DNA from: Blasia pusilla
Taxonomy: Eukaryota
Assembly (NCBI GenBank): GCA_050084515.1
Contig: CM114271.1
Location: forward strand, 10,044,001-10,108,000
Direction: 5' to 3'
DNA length: 64,000 bases
The translations under genes were made by a program, and so were the position numbers. Of this stretch, positions 19,331-62,331 are shown piece by piece; the stretch's first letter is position 1, and each line of letters starts with the position of its first letter. The notes under the pieces were generated by a model, which ran no database searches, was not told where the DNA came from, and saw only the letters and a program-made list of their open reading frames with translations.

Positions 19331-20358
19331 CAAGACTCTCTCTTGCTCATTTTTGCATGTGCTTGTTTTTCCAATTACAAACTCTATGTTGCGTCCATAA
19401 GCCAAAAGAAAAGGATTATGCATTTATAAAATGCCTGATCGAGTTGTCACGTATTTTAGGATAGATCGACGAGATCTAGTAGAGAGCCTTGGGAGGTAGT
19501 GGGCGACAACCTCAAGAGGTCAAGAATGATCTGTTGAGTCCACGCGGAACTTGAGAGAGCAAGTCTTATCTTCATTTTTGCTCATTTGGAGCCATATAGA
19601 TCTTATTTAGGATAAGTTTCCATATAGAGTATATTTGACTTTACACTTTGGGAGAGGGGGGGGGACCTTGACTAACTACAGCAGGTCAAGCCAAGGAGGT
19701 GATTTGCGTGCATAGGTTTCCGTGGAGAGAGCTTGGGAGAGGGAAGGGGATATACTTCCAAGTGTCACATTTGAGTAGTCGATAGGCCGAGATCTATTGT
19801 GGATAGGGCGTAGGAGCCAGCGAAGTGTCTTGAGTGTAACTTTGTCCTGTGGTGTCGGATGAGGTTGAGGATAGGTCCGCTGTGTCAAGAATGTCATTTC
19901 TTACAACTTTCTTATTGGGGTCTTTCACAATTGGGTGACTTGTTGAGCAGGTCACCCGCCTCTAGTAATTTATGCGCGCAAGTTACCAAGAGGATAGCCA
20001 TTTTTAGGGAAGAATCTTTTGGCTCTTCCCAACCTTATATAAGGAAGGAAGATGGCTTTCCCAAGCCATCTTTCTCATGTTGGGCCGTTGGAGCACCTCT
20101 CTTGTATGTGTGTGAGATAGGACTAGGATGCTAGCGTTCGGATTCCTTGATAGCGTAGGGTGGACGAGGCTCGATATGCCAATGTAGATTGAGGAGTGGA
20201 GTTTTAGGCCGGGTGTGCCATTTTTACTACTCTTTATTTTTGTTCTGTGATCTCCATATATATGTATGAATTGATTTCTGTACATGTGTGGATCTACCCG
20301 TGTGTGGGGAAGATTAGTGTTGTGTGATGTAGATGTGACCAGCGATATGTATGTGCAC

Positions 20359-20530
<172 letters not shown>

Positions 20531-23500: not shown

Positions 23501-24541
23501 GAGGATAGGTTTGCCACCTAGACGTATTGAGGGAGACGTGGGGCGTGAGGCTAGGATGGTTGCTCAAACACAGCAATTGCAACAGCTGATTTCAGTAGTG
23601 GCGTTAAGGTTACCCGACGCCAGAACAATGGCATCGACACCTTATGGAGAAGCATAGAAATGGAGGATCTTGGTTGGATATGCACGGCTGTACAAATGGA
23701 GGCATCCGTTTGTGTTACGCGTGGAGCAGTTGCATAGTTGGATCCACAAAGAGGGGAGGCCAGAAAACAGACCCGGCTTCCTCTATCTATCACGTTGTCC
23801 AAGGCGATGAAGACTCCATCAATGGGTCCTGATCAGAGTTCTTGGAGGATTGATGTTGTGGGTATGTAGGCACAAAGGGCGATGGGAGAAGTGAGTGTGA
23901 TGACTCCTACTGCATATGCTTATGTGGAGCCCTTGTCGAGTACGTTATTGGGGGTAGCCACTACTATGTACCGCGCCCCATTGTTTTTTGCTTTTGATGT
24001 TATGACTTTGGGAGGTATGCCAGCTGAGATTCCCGGATGGTCGCTATGCTATGTGAAGGTGGAGTTGGTTTTCTTGCATCACGATCAAAGGTGATTGAAG
24101 AGGAGGTGATGGACCTTCCCTTGGAGCCTGTGCTCGGGCTGTCCACCTCAAAGTGAGGAGCGGTAAGAGGAGAGGAAGAGAGGAGAGAGGAAACTAGGGT
24201 CAACCGAAATAGATACTCTTTTTTGAAGAGAGTTTCCGTTGGGTTGAAGAGAGGAAAATTTTTGTTTGAATTTTTTTGCACTTTTTTGTTCATATATTAA
24301 GCGATCCCACGCTTTTTTTTTTCCTCTTCCATATATTGGCAACCCTCTGAGTCCGACGAGTTGCAAATTGCACAAAATTTAGAAAACTGAAAAATCACTT
24401 TGGAATCATAAGTGTGGAACCAATCACTTTTTCCATCCAAGGTCTCAAATAATCATCATTTGCAGGGGCTGAATAGAGTTCAAGCTCGAAGTGAAGGTTG
24501 AGAAAAAAATAAAAGTACAATCTAAAACCTCCTTTGCATCC

Positions 24542-44200: not shown

Positions 44201-44312
44201 AACGAGTACCCATTCCGATCCGCGACGAGTCAGATTCGGGGAAGGCTCAATTCATGTACTATAATTTCAATTATATTTTAATGATTTGTAGAATGAGAGT
44301 CAATCTGGGTTT

Positions 44313-44707: not shown

Positions 44708-45835
44708 TCCAAAGTCAGTTATTGAAAATGTTCTCAAGGCGACTTCTTTAGTTTCTGACATTGTTTCCAACGTGCTAATTTATAAATGGACCACTCCTAC
44801 GTCTATTGCTTCGTTCGGCCCGAGCACAATTTCCAGGTGTTGAAGATCCAGGATCCTGTGGATCCATGCTCAGATGGGTACAGCTTAGATAGTTTGTACA
44901 ATTCCCCCCCGGGAATTTACATGCAAGACAGTACCCCACTTTTGGGAGGAAGGGAAAAGTCGCCAGCCCTGATGCAAACGCTCATCGAGCTCTGCTCAAG
45001 GCCGGGTGACTTGGTGTTCGACTTAGTGGGACTTTGAGGGGCAAGTATCAAAGGCGCCTAGCAGAGTGGCAGGAACATTCTCTGCCTCGAGGGAAGGCAG
45101 GAACTGTTTGACCTTTGCAAGGAGGCAAAGGCAGAATACGAAAGGCTCGTTGGGGCGTACAACTCTCCACCGAAGCCGAGAGCTCTGGTTCCAGAGCCAC
45201 CCTTGGTAGTGACTCCATCGTCACTTCCAACGATTCCCAAAATCGGGAGGGCAAGGCCGAAAGTGATTTTGCAAGAGCTCTCGGACGATGATGAGTGAGT
45301 TCAAAGAACTCAACAACCCAGCTTGACTGCAGCGTTTGGAGTAGGGAGTTTTTTGATAATGAGGCAAAAGATTTCATAGAATAGATCAAATGTACAGTTC
45401 CGAGATTTTTTGGATGATATAAAGCAGAAGATTTTTTTGATCGATGGTGGTGCTTGTTAATGTTTGCTGATCATAGGGGGAGTGATCGAGCCACGGCCAC
45501 GAGAGATGGCGATATTAGCAGCATTCAACAGCGCCATCACTTGGCCTAGTGATTTGATTGAGGGGCATGTCCATATAGAGGACACACCCGCACTTGACAC
45601 TTATGGGGAGAGAAGTGTTATGATAGCCGTATCATTCCATGGAGGAGAGTTGTCCCTTTGGGGCTTGATTGACAAGCTTTTACACTTAGCCGGTGAGCAC
45701 GTGGAGACGGCATGGAGTGAGACATTTGCACCAGAGCGTGATGGGTTAGAGAAACCTGAGGTAGCCAGGAGTGCTACAATGACACCCTTGGACATAACAC
45801 TGATTTTGTGGTGTATTCTAGAGGAGGGTATTTGA

Positions 45836-46650
45836 GTGTTGGATTTCTTCGGAAGGATCAACACTAGGTTAGTTGTTGTTTTGCAGGCATGAGTGTGCGC
45901 GCAACATTATTTGTATGTTGAGCTTGATGAGGTTGCAAGGCATATTTCACTACAACATGTGGCACAATTATAACTCCATTTTCTCGACTTGTTGTGTGTG
46001 TCCGCTATACAAGGGTACCAGAGTTCCCTACCGAGGGACATTTCATTGCTGGGGGCATAGGACTTGGAGCGAGTAGGGACCATTGATTTGGTCATTGATG
46101 GTTGGCTATGTTAGGGCCAGTCAAGTGTTGGATGAGATGGCAGGTTTGCTCACACTCGGTCCAGGTTGTTTTGGGAGATGATGAGGATCTTGCGACACTT
46201 GTAGGAATATCAATCCCATTCTCCAACTTACATCTTGGAGAATGTACTAATTTTGGGCATTTGGAGGTCACATCAGGTACGTGCATGGATCGGCCCAATA
46301 GTATTTTTGGATGCGGCCAGTGTAGGTTCACTAGCACATTGCTTGTGTCTTTGGTGGACCAACTTGGTGTCACATGAGGTGTTGCGTAGGGCGTATGCGA
46401 GAGTGGAGCCCCCCTCCCATTTGTTGGTGGATTCCATTATGGATCCAAATTGTCAATCATAGGCAATGAGGCATGATGATTGACCGCCATTGACTATGGT
46501 CAATAGGATTGACATGCCACGGGTAGCCTTTCCCATATTTTTGAGTTTTCCCGCTTCCTATACATATCGGCATTTGGTGAGTCCCATACCTACTGAGACG
46601 GTTGAGGCAATGGCTGGGGGTGAGATCTACAGCGATCGACATGCCAAGGG
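45836..46650 (+). pseudogene. Cytosine-C5 DNA methyltransferase domain inside Gypsy pol (copy 1)
   Basis: Read through stops in one frame: VLDFFGRI (motif I), YLYVELDEVAR (II), LPRDI (III), IDLVIDGWLC*GQS (IV, from WPCQ), RSRLFWE (V), YILENV (VI, 46238-46246) and LDAASVGSLAHCLCLWWTNL (VIII, decayed RxR). Confidence 0.88.
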
Positions 46651-46999
46651 TGACTCTTGGACTTCTTAGGATGTTTTACAGGTACGCCGATAGATGATAA
46701 CTATAGCATGGAGCGTGGTTCTGGGTTCTACACGTGGAGGAGATGAGATTCTGTAGTTGGTTGTAGGGGAGCAGTCAAGTCATGTTGTTCGAGATGGGAT
46801 TATACCATCAATACCCGCGCCTAAGAGTCCTACCATAGTCACGATGGAGACTTGGGAGCCAGATATGGGCCCTAAGTCCTAAGTTGACAAGAGGAGAGCG
46901 GCGTTAGATACATCAGTTCCTTAGGAGTTATAGGAGGTGTTTTGCATTTAGCATGCAAAATTTGGATACGCTGAAGGGTCCAAGGATCCGTAATGAGTT

Positions 47000-48340
47000 T
47001 TCTAGTGACACGCCAATCTTCCAACAACCTTAAATGAATAGTGAAATGGAGAGGGCTCTTATTCAGAGTAGGAGCCAAGACTAGTGGAGATGTTGCATGG
47101 GAAGTAAGCATCTACCTCTACTATGCCTGCTAAGAAGGATATAACTTGCAACTGATTGGATAGGCTGATCTGTGGAGATTACCAACCTCTTAATCCGTAA
47201 ACAAAGTCCGATAAATATGCCATGTCTACGCTTTAGGAGATCTTTGATGCTATTGGGCATGCAAAGGTCTTCAATTCATTAGATCTTCAAGTCAAATATC
47301 ATCAACTGCCTATCAGATTGGAGAACAGGCAGAAGACGGCATTTTGGGGCATCGATCCTCACGGGAAGGATTGTTTGTACTTGTGGCGATTCTTACCATT
47401 TGGGTTAAAAAATGGCTCGACTAAGTTTCAGAGGGTCATAGAGAGGATCTTGGTAGGTCAAGATTTTGCTAGGTGTTATATCAATGACATTGTAGTCTTT
47501 AGCGCCACGGTTGAGGAGCATGAGCGACATCTGGAGGAGGTGTTCCGAAGATTGCAGTTACACGGGCTGAAGCTACATCCAGGAAAGTGTAAGTTCTTCT
47601 ACGACCAGATTGAGTACCTAAGACATATGATATACCCAAGTGGCCGTGGTATGCAAAAGATAAAAGAAGAGGCTATTTAACACATTCCACGCCCTATAGA
47701 TGTGAGTCCTGTTTGTGCATTCATGGGATTGGCAAACTTCTATCGACAGCACGTCAAGGGTTTTAGCTTGATTGCGAAGCCGCTAACCTTGTTGACCAAG
47801 GTGGATCACAAGTGGTACTGGGAAAATAAGCAAGAGAGAGCATTTCAACTGCTCATGACAAAGTTGATGTATGCATCCATATTCAGGAGACCGATTAGGG
47901 GACGTCCTTTCCAGTTGCATATAGATTGGAGCATGTTGGGGCTTGGAGCGGTGCTCAACCAACATGACGATGAGGTTAGAGAGTTCGTGGTAGCTTATGC
48001 TAGTCGCTCGAATAATGATGTAGAGGCAAAGTATAGCTTGTATGAGGGTGAGTGCTTGGCTGTAGTGTGGTTTGTCGCGCATTTTGGATGTTACTTATAC
48101 GGCATCCCCTTTACCATCATAATTGATCATTAGCCACTTAAGTGGTTGATGAAGTCTAACAAGCTTGCGAGGTGGTCTCTATTGTTACAAGAGTATGATT
48201 TCCAAGTGGTACATAGACTTGGGATACTCAACCAGGATGCAGATAGGTTGAGTCGTAACCCTTGTTTGAGTCAGCGAGATGTGATTGGAGCTCGGTGGCA
48301 TGGAGAGAGTGATGAGGAGTTGGTGCCAAGATAGCACGCG
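47000..48340 (+). pseudogene. Gypsy reverse transcriptase and RNase H (DNMT-Gypsy copy 1)
   Basis: KTAFWG...FLPFGLKN..KFQRV...CYINDIVVFS; FMGLANFYR; FQLHIDWSMLGLGAVL; VAYASRS; EGECLAVVW; KLARWSLLLQEYDF. Confidence 0.92.
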
Positions 48341-49424
48341 TCAGCGTATTTGGGCTTGTGGCTATGGAGAGCTAAAGTGTTGAGACTTCGATGGCGAGGT
48401 TTGATGGAGAGTCCTTAGATCCAGAGGCTGATGCGGAGGCAACAGGTGGCCAAGATATACATGAGGATGGAGTAGTCTTGGAGGACTTGCCCATTGGCAA
48501 TGTCATGAGCACAGTGGATGCTATAGAGCGCGATCAAATCCTACAGCAATCGAGACAATTTCGGTGGGAGAGGACACATGTGTTGTAAGTTTGGGAGGAT
48601 GGTAGAGTAGGTATAGTGCGTCGTCCTTCACAGAGAGCACTTTTGATGCGACATGCCCACGAGGAGTTGCACTAGAAGAAATGGGTGGTTTTTATGACTA
48701 GACTTTAAATGACTCACCAAAAGAATGACTCAAATTATGACTAGCATGGTTTAGTCATAAAATTTAGGTTCATTCAACTCACCTAGTTATCTGCTTATGT
48801 CTCAAGTTGTTATCAATGACCTTTAGTCAAGACGAGTCATACTTGTTTAACTCACCTAGTAATATTAAGTCATAAACAACGACTGATATGTTTAAATGAT
48901 TACATGCTGTAATGTTATCGTATTTTTTATTGGTGTTGGGATATGAGTTCTTACCCTAAGTTTCAACACTATTTTTTCTATGTGTTTATGGGGTTGGGGT
49001 AACCCTTTGGGAAAATTTTCTTGATTTTTGGACCTCTAGTTGAGTAGGAAGGGTAGAAAAAGAGGTATCAAGAAGAAAGAGGACGGATTTGAGTAGGATT
49101 TTTCCAAGTGTTTATGCCATTTTCATGTTAACTATCTTTATTTTCCGACCATTAGAGCTATCCTTACTTCCAACCATTGGATGGTGATAAAACTTGGCAC
49201 TAGCCTTTTTATTATACCTTTCTTAAACTTCAACGGTTCAAATCCAACCTTAAGCCCCCCACTCTCATACCAAAAATGAAATATCTTATTTAGGGTTTAG
49301 GATTTTTAATTCCATGTGTGAGTGGTCATTTAAAGTTGTTTCTTTTCCCCTATGATCCTAGGGTTGGAGTGTCCCTATGGAAAAATTTTCCAGAGTTTTG
49401 AACCCCTTCTTGAGGGTGGAGGGG

Positions 49425-50345
49425 AGAAAGAGGAATATGATTGATTTACGAGTAATGTTCCAACTCTTTTTTGAATTTTGGTCTTCTTACCCATGCACCC
49501 TAGGCTCCCAATCGTTGGATTAAGCTGAAACACAAGAGATGTGTGGTTGGGAATTCCCTCTTGCCCTTGGACGGTGTGGATCTTCTAAATCGCACTCTAT
49601 GTTGAATTTAAAATTGGGAGACCACATAAAGGGTTTTTTATTTTTAATTCCCTCTATATATGGTCATTTGGAGTTTTTTTCTTTCTATTGGGATCTTGAA
49701 ATAGAAGTGCATGTTGTGACAAACTTTCATGATTTATGAGATTAAGGATGAAATTGAGGACCTAAAAATGGAGGAGAAAGAGGAATATGCGTGATTTACA
49801 AGTAATGTTCCAAGTCTTCTTTCAAGGGACGTCTTTTGATCCACGAATCTAGAGGTCCCACTGTTGGATTGAGCTGAAACATGAGGGATATGGGTTTGGG
49901 AATGCTCTCTTACCCTTGGACGGTGTGGATCTTCTATGTCATACTCCATGTTCAATTTAAAACTAGGATACCACATTTAGGGTTTTTGATTTTTAATTCC
50001 CTCTTAGTGTAGTCATTTTGAGAATGAAGAAGAAAGAGGAATATGTGTGATTCATGACTAATGAGTCGTCTTTTTTGAATTTTGGTCTTCTTACCCACGC
50101 ACCCCAAGTTCCCACTCTTGGATTGAGTTGAAACATGAGGTATGTGGGGTTGGGAATTCCTTCTTGCACTTGGACGGTGTGGATCTTCGAAATCATACTC
50201 TATGTTCAATTTAAAATTGGAAAACCACATTTAGGTTCTTTGATTTTTTTATTCCCTCAATGTGTGATAATTTTGATATTTTTTTCCCATTGGGATCTTG
50301 ACATGTTGTGCATGTTGTGACAAAATTTCATGAGTTACGGGCTTT
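49425..50345. repeat. Three diverged direct repeats of about 250-340 bp inside the CACTA
   Basis: The block TTGGATT(A/G)AG(C/T)TGAAACA...CTTGGACGGTGTGGATCTTC...ATTTAAAA recurs at about 49515, 49863 and 50118. Confidence 0.8.
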
Positions 50346-51256
50346 AGGAAGAAGAGGAGGACTAAAAGATGGGTAAGATGTGTTTGGCGCGAGACAATCG
50401 CAAAGACTACGTGTAGTGGAGTAGGCCGTTTGAGCTGTTGGAAGATGTAGTGAACCATGAGGTCGGTTTTTCATGTTTTATGGACCTACTCAGGGATGAG
50501 AGGTATAAGAAGTAGGTTCATGTGAATTTATGTGGGATGTTTCGATGACATTTAGGGCTAATTGCATACAAATATTAACCTAAACCTCTTACACAAGCAT
50601 GCTCCAAAAATCAAGGAAGTTTAGGGTGACACTTCATTTACGTGGCATATATTGTATGATATGGTATATTACATATCGAGCGTGGTTGGGAATATCTTTT
50701 GTTCTCTTCCAAAGTTCTCTTGTGGCAAAAAAAATAAAAAAACAAGAATTCCCTGATGCCCGGTCTTGCGTTTGAGCAGGCTTGTAATTTTGGGAATATA
50801 TTTTGTACTCTTCCAAAGTTCTCTTGGCGCAAAAAATTAAAAAATTCCCCAATTACTTAATGCTTGGTTGCGCGTTTTAGAGGCCTTGTAATTTGGGATT
50901 GGGAAATACCGGGAGTTGAAGGTGCAATGGAGAGAATGAGATGATGTGTCAGAAGGAGAAGAACAAAACTACATTGAGGTTTGAATTTGTTTGTAGGCTA
51001 TTTCCATTATGCCGTTCTCTCTCTGAGGCTTCCTCTCTCTTCAAAATGTTGTTTCCTTCTTGCAAAATGTTATTTCTTTCTTGTGCAATCTGTCGCACAC
51101 TCTTGACAGATTGCGACGGTCGTGTCCATCTTGAAGCCCCCTCATTTTTGTTGTCGTTCCCCATTGGAATCCACCAACCTTATTTTTAGATCGTTGGTTT
51201 GGTCAGATCTTTACCTTGCATAGACACTTTAAGGGCAAGAGTAGGCGGAGGAGCAT

Positions 51257-52433
51257 ATGGCAGCGACAAACATCGAGATGATGGATGGGGTGTGTTTTGT
51301 GGGAAGAAATGAAATTGTAGCGTGGATTAACTCGACTCTTTTACTCTACCTCAACAAAGTGGAGGAGGTACGGTTCATTCTACGGATATTGTACATGTAA
51401 ATTAAATGAACTCCTACGGGTCCTTTGAGAGATGTTGCTCGACAATGAATCAGCCTTGCCATCTTTCTCAACGTAGTTTGCACTACTTCTTACCGTCCGA
51501 CGACTAACTTTCCTCATTGTCTTTAGGTTACCCTTTGGGCTGCCTCATTCAACTGGTGCCTTAGTTCAGGACGATAGCGGTTCTTGCACCTAGCTAGTCG
51601 TTAGCATGAAGGGATTTTTTTGGTCCAAACATTACAATCTTATCAGACTCTTGCTCATAGCAATACATTTCAGGGTTTAGTTCTCGGGTTTCCGTAATGC
51701 TGACTGTACTTCTGCTTCATAGATCAAGCCAGTTTTGTTGCCAAACTTCCTCTTGAAAATTTTAAAATTGCAGTTATCTTTTATTTTCCAAACGTCATCA
51801 CCTTAATTTGAATGTAAGGGGGACAAAAGCCTCATTCTTCACCACGTACAATATCCTCTCGATTGATCTTGTCACATGGGATTGAGTTGTCTTTCTTTAA
51901 AACGGATGGTACCCCTATAATGTCCTCAGACCTTACGAGAGAAAAATTTAGGCTTCTATACACCAATTGGCCATTTTTTCAAAGTTGAAATATAGGATCA
52001 ACTTCGCCACGGTTTGCAATATTGAGATTCTCGTGGCAAGGAGTATTTTCCTACAAGCGTCATAGTTTTTGGAGTCACTTCAAGCTTGCAAAGTTTCTTT
52101 CTTCTATTTTGCCTAAAGATTTTATTAAAGATATCCAGTGTGTGTCAATAGTTCATGAATCATAGTCATCTTTAATTTTAGTCATCGCATGAAATTGGGG
52201 ATCTGTCAAGGAGTACTAAAGTGCACTGTAAGCGTATCATCACGTTATCCTTACTTTTAGCAGGCTCCATGATTGAATGCTTAGGGATCCATTTTAGAGA
52301 TCGGATGTAGAGGCAGAGTTGTGGAAGAGACTCTCTTAGGTCATGAATATCGTTTTGTAGTGCAGGAACCTCTAGAGTTGTGCATTGTTAGCTGATGAAT
52401 GCCGTACATCTGAGAGTGGTCGCAATGCCCAAG
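51257..52433 (+). pseudogene. EB1: Captured 5' fragment (exons 1-2) of a microtubule end-binding protein gene
   Basis: 51257-51367 reads MAATNIEMMDGVCFVGRNEIVAWINSTLLLYLNKVEE and is followed by GTACGG. 52366-52433 follows TGCAG and reads SRVVHC*LMNAVHLRVVAMPK. Both match the plant EB1 calponin-homology N-terminus as recalled (MATNIGMMDSAYFVGRNE...EEAASGAV.CQ..D...PGVVPMHK). Confidence 0.9.
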
Positions 52434-52920
52434 CACTAGTGGAGGCCTTATAGTTACAACAATACAGGATGGAGGTCGATGATCCTCGTTACTCTATATG
52501 TGAGTGTCATGTCATTTGTTAGGGCATCTCTAGGTTGTCCTAACAAATGTAAAGTATGTATGTAGTCCTGACAACAATTTTGGTAGCGGCAAGGGAATGG
52601 ATGTTGGAGGCACTAGCGCTTGTACTAGCTGATGGGGGTTATGCTATATCGACAAGCTTGACAAAAGTGTTAGATGTGCTCGATTTCTAATTTTGATAAA
52701 CTGTACATGAGCTTTCATTCCAACACAAGAACTTGCTCTGTGTGTGGAAACTCTACTTTGAAGTTTTCTTGAGTTGTTTACATCTTCAAAGTTTTTGTAA
52801 ACAAAATGGAGAAATTGCAATACTGGTGTGATGAATTTTGCGTGGGCTCATAAAATGATGTGTGCGTTACATGTATAACTATTGTAGTTTTCAGGAGGCG
52901 GATAGATCAACTATACACGG
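52432..52920 (+). pseudogene. MCM9: Captured fragment (three exon pieces) of an MCM helicase AAA+ domain, MCM9-like
   Basis: 52432-52474 STSGGLIVTTIQDG|gt; 52593-52666 EWMLEALALVLADGG/LCYIDKLDK (Walker B region); 52895-52918 EADRSTIH. The EWMLEAGALVLADGG wording suggests MCM9, but the paralogue call is less certain than the family call. Confidence 0.8.
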
Positions 52921-53164
52921 GCTTTGACGTACAACTTTGCATTAGAAATGTATTCTGAGCCATTCCTCCATTACTAGGACTTGACATTCTAGAGAACTTA
53001 AAAAGAAAAAAGGCTAAATACGAAGAGATTAGTTCATTGGATCACTGTGAATACTGAGACTTAATAACGCATGCACTAGGAGCAGTCACGAGAGTTCACT
53101 CCGTCTACAAAATGATGAAAGAGACCAATACATATTCTAATTTCAACAAATTTATGGCTCACAG

Positions 53165-53517
53165 CGGCATTGGTGATACAAGGCTCCACGCAAGTATATA
53201 GCATGAAGGTGGAATACCTCTGCGCTTTGGAGCTGCAAGCACTTGACTTCATTGCGCAAAATAAGTAAGCTCGCACTAAGTTCGCTTATGTGGTACTGCT
53301 CGTTTGGCTATTAGGTACCTTAATATGTTTTTCATGGAATGTCGCTAGTTTGTTCGATTGTCGTGAGCATCTACAACTTTTTTGTTTCTCACAAACTACG
53401 GGATCAAATCGTAATGCAGGCAAGGCCACGAGTACGTATCCTTTGAGCAAGCCAATGCTCAACATGATGCTGTAGAAGAGAAAGAAGAAGATTTTCTCGA
53501 CCTTGATGACATTACAG
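53165..53517 (+). pseudogene. CAP-H2: Captured fragment (two exons) of the condensin II kleisin subunit
   Basis: Exon 53165-53264 reads ALVIQGSTQVYSMKVEYLCALELQALDFIAQN and exon 53420-53517 reads ...EEKEEDFLDLDDIT. AG/GT sites are canonical and the phase is consistent. Confidence 0.85.
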
Positions 53518-56500
53518 GTACGTAGTCGGTTTCCACCAGTGTCCACTAACTCCTCAAGGACCCGTTCACCAAAGCGGATTGCAATAGCAATGCTTTTCAC
53601 AGATGTACAAGCCCTTCAATCGCTTATCAGAATCTCTTTTCCTTGTTTCTTATTCACGTGGCATTCTTAATTCCAATCCAAATGTTAAACAAATGTAATT
53701 TCCACCTATGCAAACATCTAGTAGAGAACCATAAGTAGGGAGATACTATCTTCATTACGTGTGGCATTTCGATGCCTTACTACTAGACCTATCAGACCTC
53801 GTGTCCATGGTTGGATGGTTGGTGATAGAGATGGGGATGGTGCATGAGAAAAGAGTGAAGAAAGTACTATTTCCTCATGAAATATCAGTGTAGCCAAAGT
53901 GATTATTTAACGTTAACTCCAAAATAGATGCGACAAGAAATTTGGAAGATCTTTTGTGTTGTAAATGTTCAATTTTTTCCAGTTGGTCCTTGCAAGATTT
54001 TATGCCTCGGATGTCATTCACTACTCTGTCCACATCTAGCGCTAGTGAGGAAGCATAAGTTACCAAACCAAACCCCTTTCTTCACAATGAATTGGTGCCT
54101 ACTTTCACGGAGATTAACTATTTGCTTTGGCAGGCTGGACTCGTACAGACTCTGAATATAAGGTGCACAGTATTTGGAGTCACCGATCCCAAAGGCCAAT
54201 ATAATCCATATCAGTGTGAGCTTTCCACCTCCAAATTTTTTTCTCCCCCTTCCTTGTATTTTCTCGTAACTTGATCTTACTTTCTAGATTGGAGTTCACT
54301 AACCAATTTAGATTCTTGCCCTAACTCCTAAATTCTAAGTTTCATCGGTTTGTAGTACTCTCTTAAATTACCTTGTCTTTGTTTGTAGCACGTTAAATAA
54401 TTAGAATGGACGAAACTTAGTAATTAGAAATCGTCCAAGCTGATAGAGAACTTGGCTAACAATCTCGAAATTGCTCTAGCTCTGAATAGATTGCTACGCA
54501 ATGTGTGAAGTGTTTGTTCATTCCGTTGTCACTACAGGGTAATATGCAAGATGCAGCCTAGTTTGCGATGATGCAAGATTTGTAGACTCACTCCTTCTGA
54601 AATATGAATGCCGCTAGGTAGGTCTGAGGAAACTCTCATATTAAAATGATAGTGATGAATTCTTCTACGTCGGAGAGTTAGAACTGTTGTCGTGTTGTGG
54701 CTAGGGCACACACAACATGCTAGAGCTGCTTATTGCATGAGTGCACTATAATTGCGACACACACATGTGACAAGGTTTGATTTTCTGTCTTGGCAGATGC
54801 GAGCACGCAAATTTGTGTTGTGACAGCGTAGACCTTTGAGATGATGTTTCCTATGATTGGGCCTTTATTGTACTGCGCATTGGTTTTTTCCGGATGGGCC
54901 CTTTATAACAAGCATAATTGCGTTGGTTGCAGGTGCAAAAGGGAAGAAGAGTCGATAGATGCTAAACTTGGCAAGTATCTGAATTCAGCAATGCAAGGAG
55001 ATCAAATGGTTCTTTCTTTGCTCAAGGCAATGGTGATTTTCCCTTTACAAGTGTTGGCTCGTAGTTGAATTTCATGATACTTAAGGAGGATGATCATTAC
55101 CATCTTGTAGAGAGGACGACAAGAAGCCGACAAAGAGGCAAAGGATTTGTGTTATCTCAACCATGCATAAGCTTTGCTGCAACTATGGTCGTCCTCAAGT
55201 AGTTTTTGGATTTGAGCCATGAACCCAGGACCCCAGGTAGATGTATTTAGGGCCATGTTAGTATGTTACAACTGGAAACCATATGTGGTCCACACTTGAA
55301 GATCCTGCAGAGGGATGTTGCCCTTCCTATTTCTTAATGTTCTCAAGAGTGTGTTCAGTTGTATTTGAATTGATCTTCAAGTTCAAAGATCTTATCAACA
55401 AGTTACTTGCATTTCCTCCAAGGGAGAAAATGTCTGTTTGTGCTTAACATCTGTTGAGTGTATATAAAATATGGTTCTGCCCTCATGGAGTGTTGGAGTT
55501 CCCTTTGCACTAACTCACTCCTTGTCAAATCATGACTTTGAGAAGAATGTGCAAATGGGAGTAGTCTACTTATCTCCATATAATTGGAATGGGAAGACTT
55601 TTCTACAACAATTATGTAGAATGCTACTCATATGGGGAGTTCTCATGTTTAAGGATAAGTTTTTGAGTGCATCAGTGAGCAATACTTCATTCTATCTTAT
55701 TTCGTTGGAATTGTAATGGCATTTCACCAGTGGTATTCCTTTCTCCTTAGCCAGGGTGCAGGGGGGATAGCTTTAGAGACGTATATCGCGAAGTAGATCA
55801 ATTCATGATCAGATTCAAAACAATGGTGTTACTTTGTGATGGTTGAAACTAGGTGAGGGAGGCAGGTATAGATGATAGGGAGTGAGCTTCTCCTGAACTT
55901 GCGGGAACTGGAGAGGGTTGAGTTTCTCCGACATTGGTGTAGACCTTTAATCTCATCAGTGATGATCTGCGAGTAGGATGTGGTTTGATAAATCTACTAT
56001 GTTGTGGTGCTTGAGTTGGGAGTTCCACTTCATCTCGTGTGACTGGAAGATTGTATCTAGGGATTGTGACTTGAGAGAAATGTTATCTATCAATCTTCAA
56101 CTTCACGCCCTTCAATACTGGGTCATGGGATATAATTTGTAATTAGCAGCGATTGGGTCCAATTTAAATTATGATAGTGTGCCATGCATCACTATCAATA
56201 TTACTAGTGCAGCAAACTTTCATTCCGACCTAGTCAATAAAACTGACTTGTTCAATCCTATTGCAATTTAATGACTGGTGGAGACATGACCATTATCACC
56301 AAGTGGATTCCTCTCCCATGGGGTACATTTGTCACATTATCATTGGATATTGTATACTTTTACATGACTAATGTAGTCCTTAGCGGTAACTAGACAAATA
56401 CCCTAGATATGACTACACGAGTTTTATTCCATAGTCCATGTCATCAGTGACATGTCATACCAATTAGTCCACGTCATACGTTGACGTGTCATTATTCCGC

Positions 56501-56714
56501 GTCATCTAAGTGACATGTCAATCATGGCCTCATGACTACACCCTCTAGTCATGCACCAACGTCCACCTAAGCCAACCATCCTAGTTAGCCTAGTCGCTAG
56601 ATAAATATGGCTTGGCTTTTGTGTCTGAAGTAGTTGTCAATCATTGCCAATCGTGGAATGACTTGTATGAGTCATATAACCTAGTCATAAAACCAAGGAT
56701 TTTTTCTAGTGTTG

Positions 56715-57340
56715 GTTCATTTTGGAGTGAAGTGGATGTATAGCTTGCTCAAGATACAATATTGGTGGTAAGGCATGTAGACTGATGTTCAGAAATTTGT
56801 TGCCAGGTGCATGGTGTGTGATCGGATCCAGGCATTGTTCAATGCTTCGACTCCATAATTGCATCCACTTTTGATCATGGGTTTAGGTTATGGATGGAGT
56901 TTGAAATTTATAGGACCTTTACCTTTGACAAAGCGCTATAGTTGTTATGTGTTGGTGATGATCAAACACTTCTCGAAGTGGATAAAGTTCCTCACAAAGC
57001 GAGTGAGGGAGTAGCGTATGCCTTCTTAGATAGAGTGTTGAGTCATTATGGAGCACCACCTGAGGTGTTGAGAGACCAAGATACGGACTTTCGCGGGGAG
57101 TTTTAAGCCTTATGTGATCAAGCGCTGATCGACCACCACACCACTTTGCGGGATCATCCTGAGGTAGATGGACTAGTGGAAAGGGTTGTGCAGATGATGA
57201 CAAGAGGTTTATGCAAGTACGGCTTTGTAGAGAGGTCACCTAAGAGATTGGAACCTCCAATTCCCTTGGATGGCGATGGGATATAAATTCAGCAAGCGGC
57301 TTACTTAACGCCTTTTTTCATCGTATTTGTTGCTTTATGG
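56715..57340 (+). pseudogene. Integrase of DNMT-Gypsy copy 1 (continuation after the CACTA)
   Basis: HFGVKW..SLL..QYWW*GM*TDVQKFVARCMVCDR, followed by a decayed catalytic core. Cut at 57341 by copy 2. Confidence 0.85.
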
Positions 57341-60300
57341 TATCACGTTTGTTAGGATATATCAACAAGATCTAGTACAGAGCCTTTGCATGTAGTGGAG
57401 GATAGCCTTAGGAGGTTGAGGATGACATACTGAGGCCACGGGTAACTTGAGAGAGCAGGTTTCCCCTTCATTTTGGCTCATTTGGAGCCATATAAAGAAA
57501 CTTACGATTTCGAGTAAGTTTCCATATTGAATAGAGTTGGTTTTCCACTTTAGAAAGTTGCGCTTGAGCTCTAGACATGCTTTAGCAGGTCTAGAGACAA
57601 GGAGGTGAGGTTATTATGGAGAGAGCTTGGGAGAGGGAAGGGGGTATACCTGCGCTGCCAAATTTTCATTATAAATTGAATATGGGGGCGAGACCTCCAT
57701 GTTGGTGAACTCAAGGGCACCATTTAGCTCTAAGGTTGTTGTTTTTATAGGTTTGAGGTTTACTTTGAGAGAAATCAACTCAGAAGCGCTACCAAAATTT
57801 GTGTAGGAGAGCAAATTGAAGGGTTGTATGATAGTCCTTGTTTGTTTTTGTTGGAAGTCCAATGGAAAAAAAATTTGACACCATCATATATCGGGAAGTT
57901 GTACATGCTGTGGAATAAACAGTGCATAATTAAAAGTTGCAAGTAGAAAGTTATGGCCAATTTTGGAAACTGCAACAACTAGACCATTTTTAGGGTGAAA
58001 ATTTGTCAAACCCTAAATGAGCCGCCGCACCGTTGCCGCTGCTACCACCATTTTCCATGGCCGCCGCTAGTTGCCACTTTTTGCCACTATTCAAGGTTGC
58101 TTTCTGCCTTGGGCGCCATGCAGGGCCAAGTCAATCCGCCGCTGCCAGACTTGGTTGACTCCGTACGCGTCGCCGCCACTTGTGCACTCCCGACTTTGAC
58201 GAGGTGACCTTTTGATTTATGGGGTCCAAGCTTTCTTTCAGATTTGCTATGTGTTGAGGTTGTTGCTGCTCACGATGATTGATTACTGTACCCATAGTCG
58301 CAATGCAATGCCAATTTCTGCGCCATACCGCTTGTGGCCGTACTGTACCGTCTTGATCACAAAGTCGTCCAATCACTAGGGAGTAGAGCATATGTTGTTG
58401 ATTGAAGAGGGTATGCCGTGGAGTGGCACACCCAATTCATGAGTGCCTTGCCATTTGTAGTCGTTCTGTGTTGCAAGTGCTGCATTATACCGCTGGACCC
58501 GCACCACACATCAAGGAGGTTTGAACATTGTCAGTACCAGAGCAGTTCGACTTGCTGATTAGGGGAGTTTTTCTTCACGACCGAGTTGGAGTAAAGATTT
58601 GTAATTGCTGAGAAGCAACATCAACATTTGTTGAGGTTACCCATTCTGGTCTTTTTGCCCTACTCGTGTGAGGGAATTTTAGGTATTGGATAGTTATTTG
58701 GAGATATTGGAGATATGGAGATGTTGAGAACATCATTGATGTATGTGGTTTAGGAGAAATTGACATGTATGGGATGTTCACAGTTGAGGGTATGTTATGT
58801 CGATGAGACGATAGATTGGTCAATTTTTTGCACCACGCCACTTGTTACGACACAGTAAACATCTCAGTGAGAGGGATTGTAGGTTGAGTTCTACATATTT
58901 CCTTGAGTGATTGAGGGATTATTCGTGAGATTAAGAGTGATTGCGCAAGAGGGCCACCAGGGTCATCACGGCGTCCTTTCGGGACTTTGAGAGACAAGAT
59001 GGTGGACCTCATAGTAGCTCTAGAGGTTTTACATGGAGTGGAGCAAGATTTCAAGGGTCTCCACATGAGAGACCACCTCGGTCTCCTTCTGTGTTGTCGC
59101 CAAACGAGGAAGACGATGTAGAGGAGTTTATGAGCATATCACCATACATAGTGAGTGATCCGCCGCATGGGAGTACGCGATGGACGACCGGGGTAGAGGA
59201 CCGCGCAGGGTTTCGGGTGCTATAGGCACGATAGAGTTGCACGACTTTGTTGTGGAGTTTAGGAGTTGGTGTGATTCACCGCAGGCTAGGAACTTTAGAG
59301 AGTTCAACCCGTTCACAGCATGGAACGACATGTTTGACCATTTAGAGGGAGCGCGCATGGACGATTACCACAAGTTCTCCCAGAGATATGCCCATGAGAT
59401 TAAGGCATGGAGACTCTTCTTTGACCCAAACTATGTGTCATGGTTTGAGTCATTTCTAGATGAAGAGTTAGGAGAGGCTACTTCCTCTTCCATCGGGGAT
59501 GTGTTAGGAGGGGTAAGTTGGACTCGAGAAGTCGGGTTCGTCTTAGGTTCAACTTCGTGGTTGAGCTCTTTGCGAAGTTACGGACGAACTACCAAGGGGT
59601 ACGGACTGAGAAGATGCTGAGCATCCATGACTTCCATAAGGTCCTGGGTGAGAGTTTACATGAGGCATTCACTCGATTGCGTTGGTTGATTAATGTCACT
59701 TAGGGGGTGACAAAGTCCCAAGCTATCCAGGCATGGTAAGCAATGGTAGACCAAGACTTGCGGAAACGGGTGAGGGGTGGGGTACTTCTTATGAGCACCT
59801 CACTTACATTGAGAGATGTTTTTGAGATCACGGAGTGTGTTGAGTGCAACATGGCTGAGGAGAGTGTAGAAGCCATGGGTTCCGTGCAAGAGCAACCACG
59901 ATAACCTGCACCATGAGTGTAGCAATATGGATTGCGGAGAGGTGTGTGGCACCATGAGCTTAGGGAGGATATCAGAAGTCCATGCCACAAAGACTTGCGC
60001 CATCATATGCCGCGCAGCTGTAGCCGCCACGAATTATTTTTTGGGTATTTGATGGAGCCCATCACCAGTACGATTGGACCTATTACGGTAGTGGACGTGT
60101 GCCTCAACATGGAGGAGGAGATGGGTCTACACCAAGAGTTTACCTGTGTGACCATTGTCAGAGATATGGTCATACAGGTGCACGATGTTTTAGCCTTTAC
60201 CATGAGTTACGTCCAGACTAAGGGCTAGAGAGCGCACCAAAGCAAGTTGTTGGTTCGGGTGGGCTAGAGGTTGTGCACTAGGTGGTCTCGTTGGGGAACC

Positions 60301-62331
60301 AGGAGTTGGATTTCCTTGAGGGGGTGGTAGAGTTTCCCATGGAGGAGGTAAAGGTCCGCCACTTAGACGCGTATAGGGAGTTGTCAGACATGAGGCTCCG
60401 ATGGCTGCTCAGATACAGCAGTTGCAGCAACAGATTGCGGCTATGGCATTGAGGTTACCCAAAGCTTGATTAGTAGTACGTTTATAGTAAATAATAAAAT
60501 ATAACCATACAAAAATTATTATTATTATGGGAGAGTATCTTTTCACTATAGGGGAAACAAGAAATACTCATATGTTAAGGCATCGACATCTTATGGAGCA
60601 GCCACCGACATGGAAAATTATGGTTGGATGTGCGTAGCCACACAAATGGAGGTAGTTGTTGTTGTTACATGTGCAGCAACTGCAAAGTTGGATCCATAAA
60701 GAGAGGAGGCCACGAAACAGACGAGGCTTCCTCATTCTTTTACTTTTTTTGAGGAGATGAGGACCCCATCGATGGGTCTTGATTAGAGTTATTGGAGGGT
60801 TGATGTTGTGGGTGTGCACGCACGGAGGATTTAGGGTTTACCTTGTGTTTTGCTCAATCAATCTTTTAATATTTTACATTTTTTTAAAAGCATGTTAATT
60901 CCCATGTTTATTATTATAGGTGTTTGGGGCACATAGTTTATTTTCCGGGTTTCTTGCAGGCGTCCTAGATTGAGGCCAAAGGCTCTGGACGGGAAGGTGA
61001 TCTTGGCTCTGTGTGCCATAGTGTATTTGGCCGCAAACTGATGCCACAAGAAGCAAGAAGAATGACTCTTATTGCAAATGCCCAAGTGGAGCTTGTGTCA
61101 AGTACGTTGTTGGGGGCGGCCATTGCTTTGTATCGCACCCCCATTTTTTTCTACTTCCGATGTTACAACGTTGGGAGGTACGCCCGCCGAGGTCTTTCGG
61201 GTGGCCGCTACGCTATGTGAGAATGGAGTTGGTGATCTTGTGTCACATTGGAGGTGATTGGAGAGGAGGTGGTGGACTTGCCCTCGGAGCCTTTGCTCAT
61301 GTGGTCCACCTTAGATTCATAGCAAGTTGCGGCTGCGAGGATGGCAGAGATGCCCGCTAAACCCGCAATCGAGCATGCCATGGTATCGCCATGTGTTGTG
61401 TTTCTTGAAAATCAAGGAGAGGTCTTCCAATTGGTGAGTCCAAGAAGCAAATTGTTCACTCCGCAGCGTGTCTTGTTAGATTCGGGAGCGCAACCCCTGA
61501 TGTTGGGAAAGGCGGCATTTACAAGATTGGGCCTATCGAGGGCCGATGTGGAGCATTGCCCATTAAAGATAGATAAATCCTTGGGTGGATCAAGTACAAA
61601 GAAATTTATCACCCGACATGAGGTTGTGGTGAGGATTTTCCCGGGACATCCATCAGATGAGTCCATAGTGCGAGCCAAGGCGATAGTGATCGATGTCGAG
61701 TCATATAATGTCTTGGTTGGAGAAGTAGTGTTATGCGTGATGGAGTTTTCCCTTGATTATTGGGAGGAGTCAACATCTTAAAGACCAAGATGGCAGTCTG
61801 ATGATGGACGACTTATCTCATACTTGTTCAATTCATGGGAGGAGTGATTGAGCGACGACTAGGAGAGATAGCAACATTAGCAACATTTAGCAGCGCCATA
61901 ACGTGGCATAGTGATTTGATTGAGGGGCATATTCATGTAGAGGGCACATCCGTACCTAACACATCTACGGAGAGGAGTGTTATGGTAGCCGCATTAGGTT
62001 CAGCACTAGGTTGGCTGTTGTTTTGTAGGCAAGAATGCAGATGGAGCAATACCTATATATGGAGCTTGATGAGGTTGCGAGGCGAGTTTCACTATGATAT
62101 GTGGCATAATTATGCTTCCATTTTCCTGACTTGTTATCTACGTCCGCTGTACATGGGTATTAGAGTTCCCTACTGAAGGACATTTCAATGCTAGGGGCGC
62201 AGGATTTGGAGCAGGTAGGGACCATCGATTTGGTCCTTGCTCGTTGGCCATGTCAAGGCCTGTCAAGTGCTAGACGGGATTGCAGGTTGGTTGACACTCG
62301 ATCCAGGTTGTTTTGGGAGATGTTGAGGATC
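57341..62331 (+). mobile_element. Second copy of the DNMT-carrying Gypsy family (5' region, gag, protease, partial DNMT)
   Basis: The start TATCACGTT..TAGGATA matches 19445 and the copy is collinear with 19445-24148, with an internal deletion. Gag-like ORF at 59180-59620, protease LLDSGAQPLMLG at 61341-61781. Confidence 0.85.
61996..62331 (+). pseudogene. C5-DNMT domain fragment (copy 2) with intact catalytic PCQ
   Basis: YLYMELDEVARRV...GTIDLVLARWPCQGLSSA...DTRSRLFWEMLRI, with PCQ at 62248-62256. Motif I is deleted and the fragment is cut by the LTR at 62332. Confidence 0.88.

What the first reader, a model, noticed from the sequence alone, without database searches (positions are those of the whole stretch)
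45780..46650. Gypsy retrotransposon carrying a cytosine-C5 DNA methyltransferase between protease and RT
Seen: the ORF track misses it, but reading through stops gives DNMT motifs I, II, III, IV, V, VI (ENV) and VIII in order, continuing the pol frame and about 400 bp upstream of RT. Known: DNMT-encoding retrotransposons have been reported in dinoflagellates and the charophyte Klebsormidium and are not a standard feature of land-plant Gypsy elements. Inference: this lineage persists, or persisted, in this genome and could methylate its own cDNA.
Basis: partly seen in the sequence, partly recalled or inferred. Interest (0 to 1): 0.82.

Follow-up and report, generated by a model that had tools for sequence, protein, structure and literature searches.

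The report
Dead Gypsy retrotransposon carrying a DNMT3
This stretch is a decayed copy of a jumping gene that carries its own DNA-methylating enzyme, a rare kind so far described in an alga, and its closest relatives sit in liverwort and moss genomes.

Summary
Read through stops, window 45,836-46,714 (+) encodes a C5 DNA methyltransferase with motifs I-VI and VIII-X in canonical order. It matches a Calypogeia fissa protein at E 1.8e-89. It lies directly upstream of RT, RNase H and integrase homology.

A second copy at 57,343-62,331 has gag with a CCHC knuckle, protease and the DNMT N-terminal half with PCQ intact. Both copies are dead: at least 17 in-frame stops and 3 frameshifts in copy A.

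The enzyme is DNMT3-like by sequence and by fold. Relatives with the same order gag-PR-DNMT-RT-RH-INT occur in Marchantia, Calypogeia, Sphagnum and many unnamed metagenome contigs. A Klebsormidium protein belongs to the same DNMT family.

Whole relatives show split direct repeats A...B-A-B, the pattern the 2018 paper's figure legend describes. They also share an in-frame stop between DNMT and RT.

Verdict: a relic of the known Gypsy-DNMT3 kind, here in a probable liverwort. My ten paper searches found no report from land plants. Catalytic activity and self-methylation of cDNA remain untested.

The parts
45471..45835 (+). Copy A: conserved linker between protease and DNMT. The element is cut off on its 5' side at about 45,470.
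   Evidence: DNA homology to copy C begins at 45,471. tblastn of P0003 residues 205-312 and of P0166 from residue 768 starts at 45,497-45,506. No protease or gag homology lies upstream of 45,471.
45836..46714 (+). Copy A: DNMT3-like C5 cytosine methyltransferase domain with motifs I-VI and VIII-X. It is inactivated by 9 in-frame stops up to 46,570, by PCQ reading L-C-stop, and by AHRxR reading AHCLC.
46845..48319 (+). Copy A: reverse transcriptase and RNase H. 46,845-47,081 is in the +1 frame and the rest is in the DNMT frame. There are 8 in-frame stops.
   Evidence: Pfam RVT_1 E 9.6e-20 and RT_RNaseH E 9.3e-29. 57% identity to Marchantia P0213 and 61% to P0222. The RT groups with the Marchantia DNMT elements (SH-aLRT 100).
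48418..48690 (+). Copy A: spacer after RNase H and the first half of the integrase zinc (HHCC) region. The homology is then broken off.
   Evidence: tblastn of P0213 residues 1134-1189. The end near 48,690 is approximate.
48691..56690 (.). About 8 kb of unrelated, lower-GC sequence that splits copy A's integrase. It includes tandem repeats at 49,423-50,372.
   Evidence: The integrase protein homology stops near 48,69x and resumes at 56,712, about where it left off. GC 0.395. The borders are approximate.
56712..57341 (+). Copy A: second half of the integrase zinc region and the DDE core.
   Evidence: tblastn of P0155 residues 1909-2126, E 1.25e-34, and of Sphagnum P0245 residues 1103-1237 at 53% identity.
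57343..59194 (+). Copy C: terminal repeat and leader upstream of gag. Its inner borders are not determinable in the window.
   Evidence: Homology with copy D starts at 57,343 <-> 19,447. gag homology starts at 59,195.
59195..60774 (+). Copy C: gag, with a CCHC knuckle at 60,147-60,188. It carries several frameshifts and stops.
   Evidence: tblastn of Marchantia P0166 residues 9-488.
61141..61814 (+). Copy C: aspartic protease, with the active-site LLDSGA at 61,473-61,490.
   Evidence: tblastn of P0166 residues 528-750 at 47% identity, E 7e-46.
61834..62331 (+). Copy C: linker remnant and the N-terminal part of the DNMT (second half of motif I to motif V), with PCQ intact at 62,248-62,256. About 90 codons are deleted, and the copy is cut off at 62,331 by other repeats.
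19447..24013 (+). Copy D: leader and gag of the same family (CCHC at 23,303-23,344). It is about 76% identical to copy C and has no DNMT part left.

Best explanation
Window 45,471-48,690 plus 56,712-57,341 is one old, dead, 5'-truncated and interrupted copy of an LTR-type Ty3/Gypsy retrotransposon. Its family carries a DNMT3-like cytosine-C5 methyltransferase between protease and reverse transcriptase. A second dead copy (57,343-62,331) and a gag-only third copy (19,447-24,013) lie in the same window. The host is probably a liverwort.

What is shown for intact relatives: the layout is repeat A, leader, gag(CCHC), PR, linker, DNMT, in-frame stop, RT, RNase H, integrase, then repeats B-A-B. The DNMT is therefore the last domain of the first ORF.

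What is inferred: the DNMT is made with every Gag-PR translation, while RT and integrase need read-through of the conserved stop. The domain has the DNMT3 catalytic fold but none of the chromatin-reading domains of host DNMT3s.

Most likely mechanism (inferred, about 0.35): the protease frees the enzyme, or it acts within the particle or pre-integration complex, and it methylates the element's own newly made DNA at or before integration.

In this window nothing works any more. Both DNMT remnants are broken. Their CpG depletion fits long-term methylation and deamination by the host.
For: - **Identity of the domain.** One search gives E 1.8e-89 in one frame. Searches give Pfam PF00145 for both copies. 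Searches show the best solved relatives are DNMT3A/B/C: the top 29 of 48 distinct sequences for P0003, E 8.4e-11 to 1.2e-7, ahead of DRM and the bacterial enzymes. In one search the AF2 model of P0003 has block means of pLDDT mostly above 90 across residues 301-640 (lowest 79). In one search all 30 listed Foldseek rows are DNMT3A/B/C, TM 0.76-0.84 on the chains of 271-291 residues.
- **Part of the element.** Searches show collinear DNMT-RT-RNase H in Marchantia P0213 and P0222. One search shows single ORFs with CCHC, DNMT, RT, RH and INT (P0155, P0160; a protease match in P0155 only). One search shows ten metagenome loci examined: seven carry gag-PR-DNMT-RT-INT in order, one stops after RT (L022), and two end at or within the DNMT (L010, L011).
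- **Family placement.** In the careful DNMT tree of 69 rows, the window pairs with Calypogeia (86/86) inside a 15-row clade with Marchantia and Sphagnum (100/100). The RT groups with Marchantia DNMT elements (SH-aLRT 100, 69% identity).
- **Terminal repeats.** L029 and L031 show A1...B1-A2-B2.
- **Conserved stop.** 24 of 80 loci have the same in-frame stop (21 TAG, 3 TAA) between the DNMT tail and RT, plus one variant. The Marchantia and Calypogeia proteins end at the matching place.
- **Catalytic motifs in relatives.** P-C-(Q/N) or E-C-Q is present in 172 of 186 proteins with a near-complete domain, and AHRxR in 167 of 186.
- **Decay.** Copy A has at least 17 in-frame stops and 3 frameshifts. 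CpG observed/expected is 0.57 for copy A and 0.65 for copy C, against 0.94 for the young element B. Transitions to transversions between A and C are 71:27.
Against: - No activity has been shown for any Gypsy DNMT3. The 2018 paper found none in yeast for the Klebsormidium enzyme and called this inconclusive.
- dN/dS between metagenome copies is only moderately below 1 for the DNMT (median 0.58, 103 pairs) and higher than for RT/RNase H (0.37, 44 pairs). Much of that divergence may be decay after insertion.
- Exact ENV is present in only 103 of 186 relatives.
- The Pfam score of copy A sits on the threshold: 22.4 and 21.6 bits against 22.
- Terminal repeats, target-site duplication and primer-binding site could not be found for any of the three copies in the window.
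- No host plant DNMT3 sequence was available, so my trees do not exclude that host and element enzymes interleave.
- The host organism is inferred from best matches only. No genome is held for the window.
Confidence: 0.88

Rival explanations
1. The DNMT segment is a host DNMT3 gene or pseudogene that merely lies next to an unrelated Gypsy insertion. On this view the 'fusion' is an accident of nesting.
For: The region is a pile of nested elements. Copy A is truncated exactly upstream of the DNMT linker.
Against: - The same order recurs in two copies in the window, in Marchantia proteins, in single-ORF polyproteins and in eight of the ten metagenome loci examined.
- There are no introns, and the DNMT is in frame with RT in relatives.
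- Pfam finds only PF00145 in P0003 and P0166. No accessory domain of host DNMT3s appears: the DUF3444 named in PMC6453930 (passage) or the PWWP and ADD named in PMC12344493 (passage).
Confidence: 0.02
2. In living family members the DNMT domain acts mainly on host chromatin in trans. For example it could lay down CG methylation around insertion sites or genome-wide, shaping the host methylome rather than marking its own cDNA.
For: The DNMT sits in ORF1 upstream of the conserved stop, so it would be made in excess over RT and integrase (inference). It has no targeting domain. The 2018 paper discusses effects on host epigenomes (passages).
Against: No data. The 2018 paper reports that the Klebsormidium methylome looks like that of land plants despite these elements (passage).
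Confidence: 0.15
3. The domain is kept for a non-catalytic role such as DNA or RNA binding in the particle, or it methylates RNA.
For: No activity was seen in yeast for the Klebsormidium enzyme. DNMT dN/dS is higher than that of RT. Exact ENV is missing in 83 of 186 relatives.
Against: The catalytic cysteine motif is kept in 172 of 186 and AHRxR in 167 of 186. Fold and motifs are those of DNA-acting DNMT3s.
Confidence: 0.12

Closest known systems
KnitGypsy-Dnmt3 of Klebsormidium nitens (de Mendoza et al. 2018, PMC5890265; abstract and passages read)
   Same: - Both carry a DNMT3-type, non-rearranged, intronless DNMT inside a Gypsy-type element.
- The paper's figure legend describes DIRS-like repeats (A-coding-B-A-B) for that element. 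I found the same pattern in whole relatives L029 and L031.
- The K. nitens protein P0272 falls in the same DNMT family, shares the motif VIII-X signatures, and groups with CCHC...DNMT proteins.
   Different: - P0272 is only 31% identical and sits in a different subclade from the bryophyte group.
- The domain order of the alga's element is shown only in a figure I could not see.
- The hosts here are land plants, which the paper's survey table did not show to carry such elements.
SymbioDIRS-Dnmt3 and SymbioLINE-Dnmt of Symbiodinium (same paper)
   Same: Retrotransposons that encode a DNMT in the Pol polyprotein. The DIRS type is DNMT3-like and methylates CG de novo in yeast.
   Different: They use a tyrosine recombinase or a LINE endonuclease instead of a DDE integrase. 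The host lineage is unrelated.
Host DNMT3 enzymes: animal DNMT3A/B/C, and plant DNMT3 with DUF3444
   Same: Closest solved sequences and folds: 22-24% identity, TM 0.76-0.84 on the chains of 271-291 residues.
   Different: Pfam detects no PWWP, ADD or DUF3444. The domain is embedded in a gag-PR ORF.
RT-RNase H-DNMT-integrase-PHD elements (for example 'pol' of Scenedesmus sp. PABB004, P0046; database records only)
   Same: The same DNMT family at 35-42% identity, and a Gypsy-type RT.
   Different: The DNMT lies between RNase H and integrase, and a PHD finger follows the integrase. These form their own clade in the DNMT tree (26 tips, 100/100) and in the RT tree (33 rows, SH-aLRT 99).
EpiLTRs (preprint 10.64898/2026.05.21.726589; passages read)
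   Same: LTR elements that carry a DNMT.
   Different: By the preprint's own words, their DNMT is sister to DNMT4, sits at the 3' end of pol, and comes together with an adenine methyltransferase and a chromodomain.

Membership tests
C5 cytosine DNA methyltransferase, DNMT3 class | Conserved motifs I-X in the linear (non-DRM) order | tested here: met
   Alignment with intact relatives shows I, II, III, IV, V, VI, VIII, IX and X in order at 45,836-46,714. Motif VII was not identified.
C5 cytosine DNA methyltransferase, DNMT3 class | Catalytic P-C-Q, E-N-V and R-x-R residues intact | tested here: not met
   Copy A has L-C-stop and AHCLC, though ENV is intact. Copy C has PCQ intact but ends before ENV. 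Both are remnants, not working enzymes. Intact relatives keep these residues.
C5 cytosine DNA methyltransferase, DNMT3 class | Pfam PF00145 at or above the gathering score | tested here: inconclusive
   Copy A scores 22.4 bits and 21.6 bits against a cut-off of 22. Copy C scores 23.3 bits. Intact relative P0003 scores 35.2 bits.
C5 cytosine DNA methyltransferase, DNMT3 class | Closest to DNMT3 rather than DNMT1, DNMT2, DRM or bacterial enzymes | tested here: met
Ty3/Gypsy LTR retrotransposon | Order PR, RT, RNase H, then DDE integrase, with a gag that has a CCHC knuckle | tested here: met
   Copy A has RT, RNase H and integrase. Copy C has gag with CCHC and PR with DSG. Whole relatives show the full order.
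Ty3/Gypsy LTR retrotransposon | Two identical-at-insertion LTRs (TG...CA) with a short target-site duplication | tested here: inconclusive
   No repeat pair was found for copies A, C or D in the window. In relatives the repeats start TG and end CA, but they are arranged A...B-A-B rather than as two plain LTRs, and I found no target-site duplication.
Gypsy-DNMT3 elements (KnitGypsy-Dnmt3 kind) | DNMT3-type domain encoded within the element's own polyprotein, without introns | tested here: met
Gypsy-DNMT3 elements (KnitGypsy-Dnmt3 kind) | DIRS-like split direct repeats (A-coding-B-A-B), as the 2018 figure legend states | tested here: inconclusive
   Met in relatives L029 and L031. Not detectable in the window's own decayed copies.
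Gypsy-DNMT3 elements (KnitGypsy-Dnmt3 kind) | DNMT and RT form one clade with the Klebsormidium elements, to the exclusion of host DNMT3 and of other Gypsy lineages | not testable with these tools
   Only one K. nitens protein (P0272, a gene model lacking motif IV) was reachable, and no host DNMT3 or reference Gypsy RT set. P0272 is in the same family but in another subclade.

The most novel reading that the evidence does not exclude
Gypsy-DNMT3 elements are not a Klebsormidium oddity. They are an old streptophyte lineage that crossed onto land. The shared features are the DNMT3 module at the end of ORF1, the conserved leaky stop before RT, and the split A...B-A-B repeats. The lineage may still have working members in bryophytes, including the model liverwort Marchantia polymorpha, where ORF1 models of about 1,250-1,280 residues with all catalytic motifs exist. 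If so, a transposon-encoded de novo methyltransferase acts in a land plant and can be tested genetically.
Probability: 0.3. Interest if true: 0.7.

Novelty: new member of a known kind. Interest (0 to 1): 0.45.

Why it matters
Cytosine methylation is the host's main weapon against transposons, so a transposon that brings its own de novo methyltransferase is a paradox. Its purpose is still unknown. The described cases are in a dinoflagellate and a charophyte alga, which are hard to manipulate, and for the Gypsy type no activity has been shown.

The same kind of element occurs in liverworts and mosses, with apparently whole first ORFs in Marchantia. That would move the question into a plant with good genetics and methylome tools.

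Two results narrow the possible mechanisms:
- The DNMT is placed upstream of a conserved in-frame stop, so the enzyme would be made at Gag level rather than at RT level.
- The repeat layout is shared with the algal element.

The window's own copies matter only as evidence that the family once lived in this genome.

Tried and rejected
- **Own genome:** not held, so copy number and intact copies in this genome are unknown.
- **Pfam scan of 34 kb in three frames:** Replaced by smaller scans.
- **Atlas look-up:** Stop-free window ORFs were used instead.
- **Earlier findings of this scan:** none for this genome.
- **Sequencing runs:** 6 coded DNA runs with small shares (0.06-0.13), and no RNA holder listed.
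- **Decay by substitutions only:** rejected. Copy A has at least 3 frameshifts, and several of the 31 stops of the single-frame read lie in an out-of-frame stretch.
- **Ancestral programmed frameshift between DNMT and RT:** rejected. In 6 of the 8 loci with both parts, the DNMT end and the RT start share a frame. 24 loci share an in-frame stop.
- **'LIDGGAC' at 45,437-45,457 as the protease active site of copy A:** not supported. No protease homology lies upstream of 45,471.
- **B-type repeats or LTR pairs for the window's copies:** none found.
- **Relation of copies A and C:** it is open whether C is nested in A's integrase tail or follows it in tandem with shared repeats.
- **dN/dS between metagenome copies:** only weak evidence of constraint on the DNMT.
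- **ParB-like motif near 30.9 kb:** no Pfam match at E 0.05 or better. Only a language-model lead.
- **Papers:** ten searches found no report of DNMT-bearing Gypsy elements in liverworts, mosses or other land plants. The library lacks most subscription journals. The PDF supplements of the 2018 paper, which hold its figures of domain order and alignments, could not be read.
Full report
**1. What is in the sequence**

The window is eukaryotic, TE-rich DNA, and no genome is held for it.

Reading 45,401-48,334 in one frame with X at stops gives four Pfam matches:
- RVT_1, E 9.6e-20
- RT_RNaseH, E 9.3e-29
- RT_RNaseH_2, E 2.9e-25
- PF00145 (C5 DNA methylase) at threshold: 22.4 bits, E 9.5e-05, and 21.6 bits

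A word-index search with the read-through DNMT part found one protein, P0003 of the liverwort Calypogeia fissa, at E 2.2e-72. tblastn of P0003 back on the window aligns residues 205-567 to 45,506-46,570 in a single frame at 47.7% identity, E 1.8e-89. It also finds the second copy at 61,098-62,331.

Alignment with intact relatives places motifs I, II, III, IV, V, VI, VIII, IX and X at 45,836-46,714.

**2. State of the copies**

Copy A is dead.
- Against Marchantia P0213 its homology falls into four pieces in frames 0, +1, 0 and +2, with 9, 2, 6 and 0 in-frame stops.
- Motif IV reads L-C-stop and motif VIII reads AHCLC.
- Of the ten stops in the linker and DNMT part that have aligned residues in relatives, about six sit where relatives have Q or R, as C-to-T change would give.
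- CpG observed/expected is 0.57, with a TpG+CpA excess of 1.26. The young neighbouring element B has 0.94 and 0.98.
- Copy A lacks everything upstream of 45,471.
- Its integrase is split. The first half of the zinc region ends near 48,690. The second half plus the DDE core resume at 56,712-57,341, about where the protein alignment left off. About 8 kb of unrelated lower-GC DNA lies between.

Copy C (57,343-62,331) holds the following:
- a leader
- gag with a CCHC knuckle at 60,147-60,188
- a protease with LLDSGA at 61,473-61,490
- the DNMT from the second half of motif I to motif V, with PCQ intact at 62,248-62,256

Copy C has many frameshifts and a deletion of about 90 codons. It is cut at 62,331 by another repeat family.

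Copy D (19,447-24,013) keeps only leader and gag.

Copies A and C are about 80% identical in DNA, with transitions to transversions 71:27.

**3. The enzyme class**

For both the window's remnant and the intact P0003, the best solved sequences are mammalian DNMT3A/B/C.
- For P0003 the top 29 of 48 distinct sequences are DNMT3s, E 8.4e-11 to 1.2e-7.
- After them come a plant 'DNA methyltransferase' entry (3.9e-7), DRM2 (2e-4), HaeIII and HhaI (4e-4 to 7e-3) and DNMT2.

An AlphaFold2 model of P0003, built from an alignment of 40 relatives, has block means of pLDDT mostly above 90 across residues 301-640, with a lowest block of 79. All 30 Foldseek rows listed are DNMT3A/B/C. TM-scores are 0.76-0.84 on the chains of 271-291 residues, at 22-24% identity.

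The motif order is linear, not rearranged as in DRM. Pfam finds no accessory domain in P0003 or Marchantia P0166.

**4. The family**

A full HMMER search with P0003 against 1.84 billion representatives gave 281 proteins at E 1e-30 or better.

I classified the 268 session proteins with a DNMT match by the position of RT and integrase homology:

| Layout | Proteins |
|---|---|
| DNMT before RT | 20 (one is the window's own read) |
| DNMT after RT/RNase H | 81 |
| DNMT before integrase only | 18 |
| DNMT alone | 149 |

Pfam confirms two layouts.
- The first is CCHC, (protease) DNMT, RT, RNase H, integrase (P0155 with a protease match, and P0013 and P0160 without one; P0182 has protease, DNMT and RT; P0021 has DNMT and RT only). 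Marchantia P0213 and P0222 carry DNMT, RT and RNase H.
- The second is RT, RNase H, DNMT, integrase, usually followed by a PHD finger. It includes 'pol' of Scenedesmus sp. PABB004.

Named members of the first kind:
- 22 Marchantia polymorpha records from three annotation sets, so some loci may be counted more than once
- 2 Calypogeia fissa records
- 3 Sphagnum records
- 1 Klebsormidium nitens record (P0272, 31% identity, E 7e-33)

I built a careful DNMT tree of 69 rows. Eight rows were left out: five long branches, two near-duplicates and one gappy row. Results:
- The window pairs with Calypogeia (86/86).
- That pair sits inside a 15-row clade with Marchantia, Sphagnum and three unnamed proteins (100/100).
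- The RT-first elements form one clade of 26 tips (100/100).
- The Klebsormidium protein sits in a separate 6-row group of CCHC...DNMT proteins (100/100).

In a quick RT tree of 46 rows (26 RT-first rows dropped at random), the window's RT joins the Marchantia DNMT elements (SH-aLRT 100, 69% identity). The other Gypsy element of the window (B) is far away.

No host DNMT3 and no reference Gypsy RTs were available. The number of captures therefore stays open.

**5. Whole relatives**

A scan of metagenome contigs gave 80 loci. I examined ten long ones. Seven carry gag, PR, DNMT, RT/RNase H and integrase in that order on one strand. One (L022) stops after RT. Two (L010, L011) end at or within the DNMT.

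L029 and L031 show a 342-344 bp repeat A upstream of a leader of about 1.1 kb. At the 3' end, a 113-115 bp repeat B lies on both sides of the second A, giving A1...B1-A2-B2. L002 is cut by the end of the locus.

The legend of Fig. 4 of the 2018 paper says that the repeats of KnitGypsy-Dnmt3 have the structure of a DIRS element. The legend of its Fig. 1 writes that structure as A-coding-B-A-B.

In 24 of the 80 loci the tail after the DNMT ends at the same stop codon: TAG in 21 and TAA in 3, followed by CAA CCC (CAA CCT in one locus). The RT region follows in the same frame. One more locus has TAG CAA CTA. The Marchantia ORF1 models P0166 and P0208 and the Calypogeia protein end at the matching position.

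I recall that UAG followed by CAR-YYA promotes read-through in plant viruses. That motif comes from memory, not from a call, and most copies here fit it only in part.

Copy A of the window lacks about 75 codons here, including the stop.

No B-type repeat was found around the window's copies. Whether copy C is nested in A's integrase tail or follows it in tandem stays open.

**6. How it most likely works**

Shown: the domain order, the DNMT3 fold, and the retention of the catalytic cysteine motif in 172 of 186 near-complete relatives and of AHRxR in 167 of 186. Also shown is the placement of the DNMT at the end of ORF1, ahead of a conserved in-frame stop.

Inferred: the enzyme is translated with Gag and protease, and so in excess over RT and integrase. 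It is released by the protease or acts inside the particle or pre-integration complex, and it methylates the element's new DNA. The 2018 authors suggested this for their elements.

Against this: the Klebsormidium enzyme was inactive in yeast, which the authors call inconclusive. dN/dS between metagenome copies is 0.58 for the DNMT against 0.37 for RT/RNase H.

My estimates are about 0.35 for self-methylation, 0.15 for action on host DNA in trans, and 0.12 for a non-catalytic or RNA role. The rest is open.

**7. Comparison and novelty**

This is the known Gypsy-DNMT3 kind. The new points are these:
- the land-plant (bryophyte) hosts
- the evidence that the bryophyte and algal elements share the odd repeat layout
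- the conserved stop between DNMT and RT
- the size of the related RT-first, PHD-bearing group

Papers I could search speak of the Klebsormidium case or of 'streptophytes' citing it. None of ten searches found a bryophyte report. The survey table in the one readable supplement of the 2018 paper lists Physcomitrella and Selaginella but not Marchantia.

The family is plainly visible in public Marchantia annotations. A specialist may therefore already know it.

**8. Verdict**

- Observation: confirmed.
- Interpretation: supported.
- The window's copies are relics.
- Interest is moderate (0.45).
- Novelty: new member of a known kind.

Noticed in passing
window 29,843-32,414 and 43,182-45,300 (+): The two flanks of element B form one older locus, with GC about 0.52 and CpG not depleted.
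- A beta-class N6/N4 DNA methylase-like remnant has a motif IV-like part near 43.9-44.3 kb and a motif I part near 44.95-45.12 kb.
- Support for the methylase is weak: Pfam PF01555 E 0.0016, 18.9 bits, below its cut-off; PDB M.RsrI E 0.085; atlas 0.85-0.86.
- Upstream lies an ORF (30,700-31,059) with a ParB_N-like lead: atlas 0.93-0.94, no Pfam match.
- It lies directly upstream of copy A but is not part of the Gypsy-DNMT family.

Marchantia is reported to have bacterial-type 4mC methylases (preprint 10.1101/2021.02.12.428880, passage read). No link was tested.
   Followed up: partly
window 32,415-43,181 (element on the minus strand): A full-length, younger LTR retrotransposon (element B).
- Its 1.18 kb LTRs are 96.6% identical, with TG...CA ends.
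- It has a 5-bp target-site duplication, GCACG/GCAGG.
- It has an open 445-residue gag ORF with three CCHC knuckles (39,354-40,691).
- RT and integrase homology lie at 36.2-38.6 kb.
- It carries no DNMT.
   Followed up: partly
window 44,309-44,614; also 28.8-29.5 kb and 31.1-31.4 kb: A 306-bp palindromic repeat (arms about 80% complementary) sits between the two methylase-like parts. Short related stretches occur at two other places. It looks like a MITE-type insertion or intron repeat.
   Followed up: no
metagenome loci L001-L031, L040, L042, L051 (for example L002 12,401; L029 6,940): A conserved in-frame stop between the DNMT tail and RT occurs in 24 of the 80 fetched loci, plus one variant: TAG CAA CCC in most, with TAA in 3 and CAA CCT in one. 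This suggests that RT and integrase are expressed by stop-codon read-through.
   Followed up: partly
metagenome loci L029 (1,676-2,017; 10,238-10,805) and L031 (7,056-7,399; 15,702-16,270): Split direct repeats A1...B1-A2-B2 replace plain LTRs in elements that otherwise have a DDE integrase. How such an element completes its ends is unexplained.
   Followed up: partly
proteins P0018, P0035-P0046 and others; Scenedesmus sp. PABB004 'pol' P0046: A large related group of elements has the order RT, RNase H, DNMT, integrase, PHD finger. It accounts for 81 of the 268 session proteins with a DNMT match (66 with integrase homology as well). It forms its own clade in the DNMT and RT trees. My searches found no paper on it.
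   Followed up: partly
window 20,362-20,528: A perfect repeat of 6-bp period lies inside a 1.09 kb insertion that interrupts copy D's leader.
   Followed up: no
window 268-1,104 and 35,882-36,718; 7,624-7,892, 17,329-17,876 and 63,430-63,975: Further repeat families:
- an integrase-bearing fragment at the window start, 80% identical to part of element B
- a repeat of about 0.5 kb present three times, one copy of which lies in the DNA that follows the cut end of copy C
   Followed up: no
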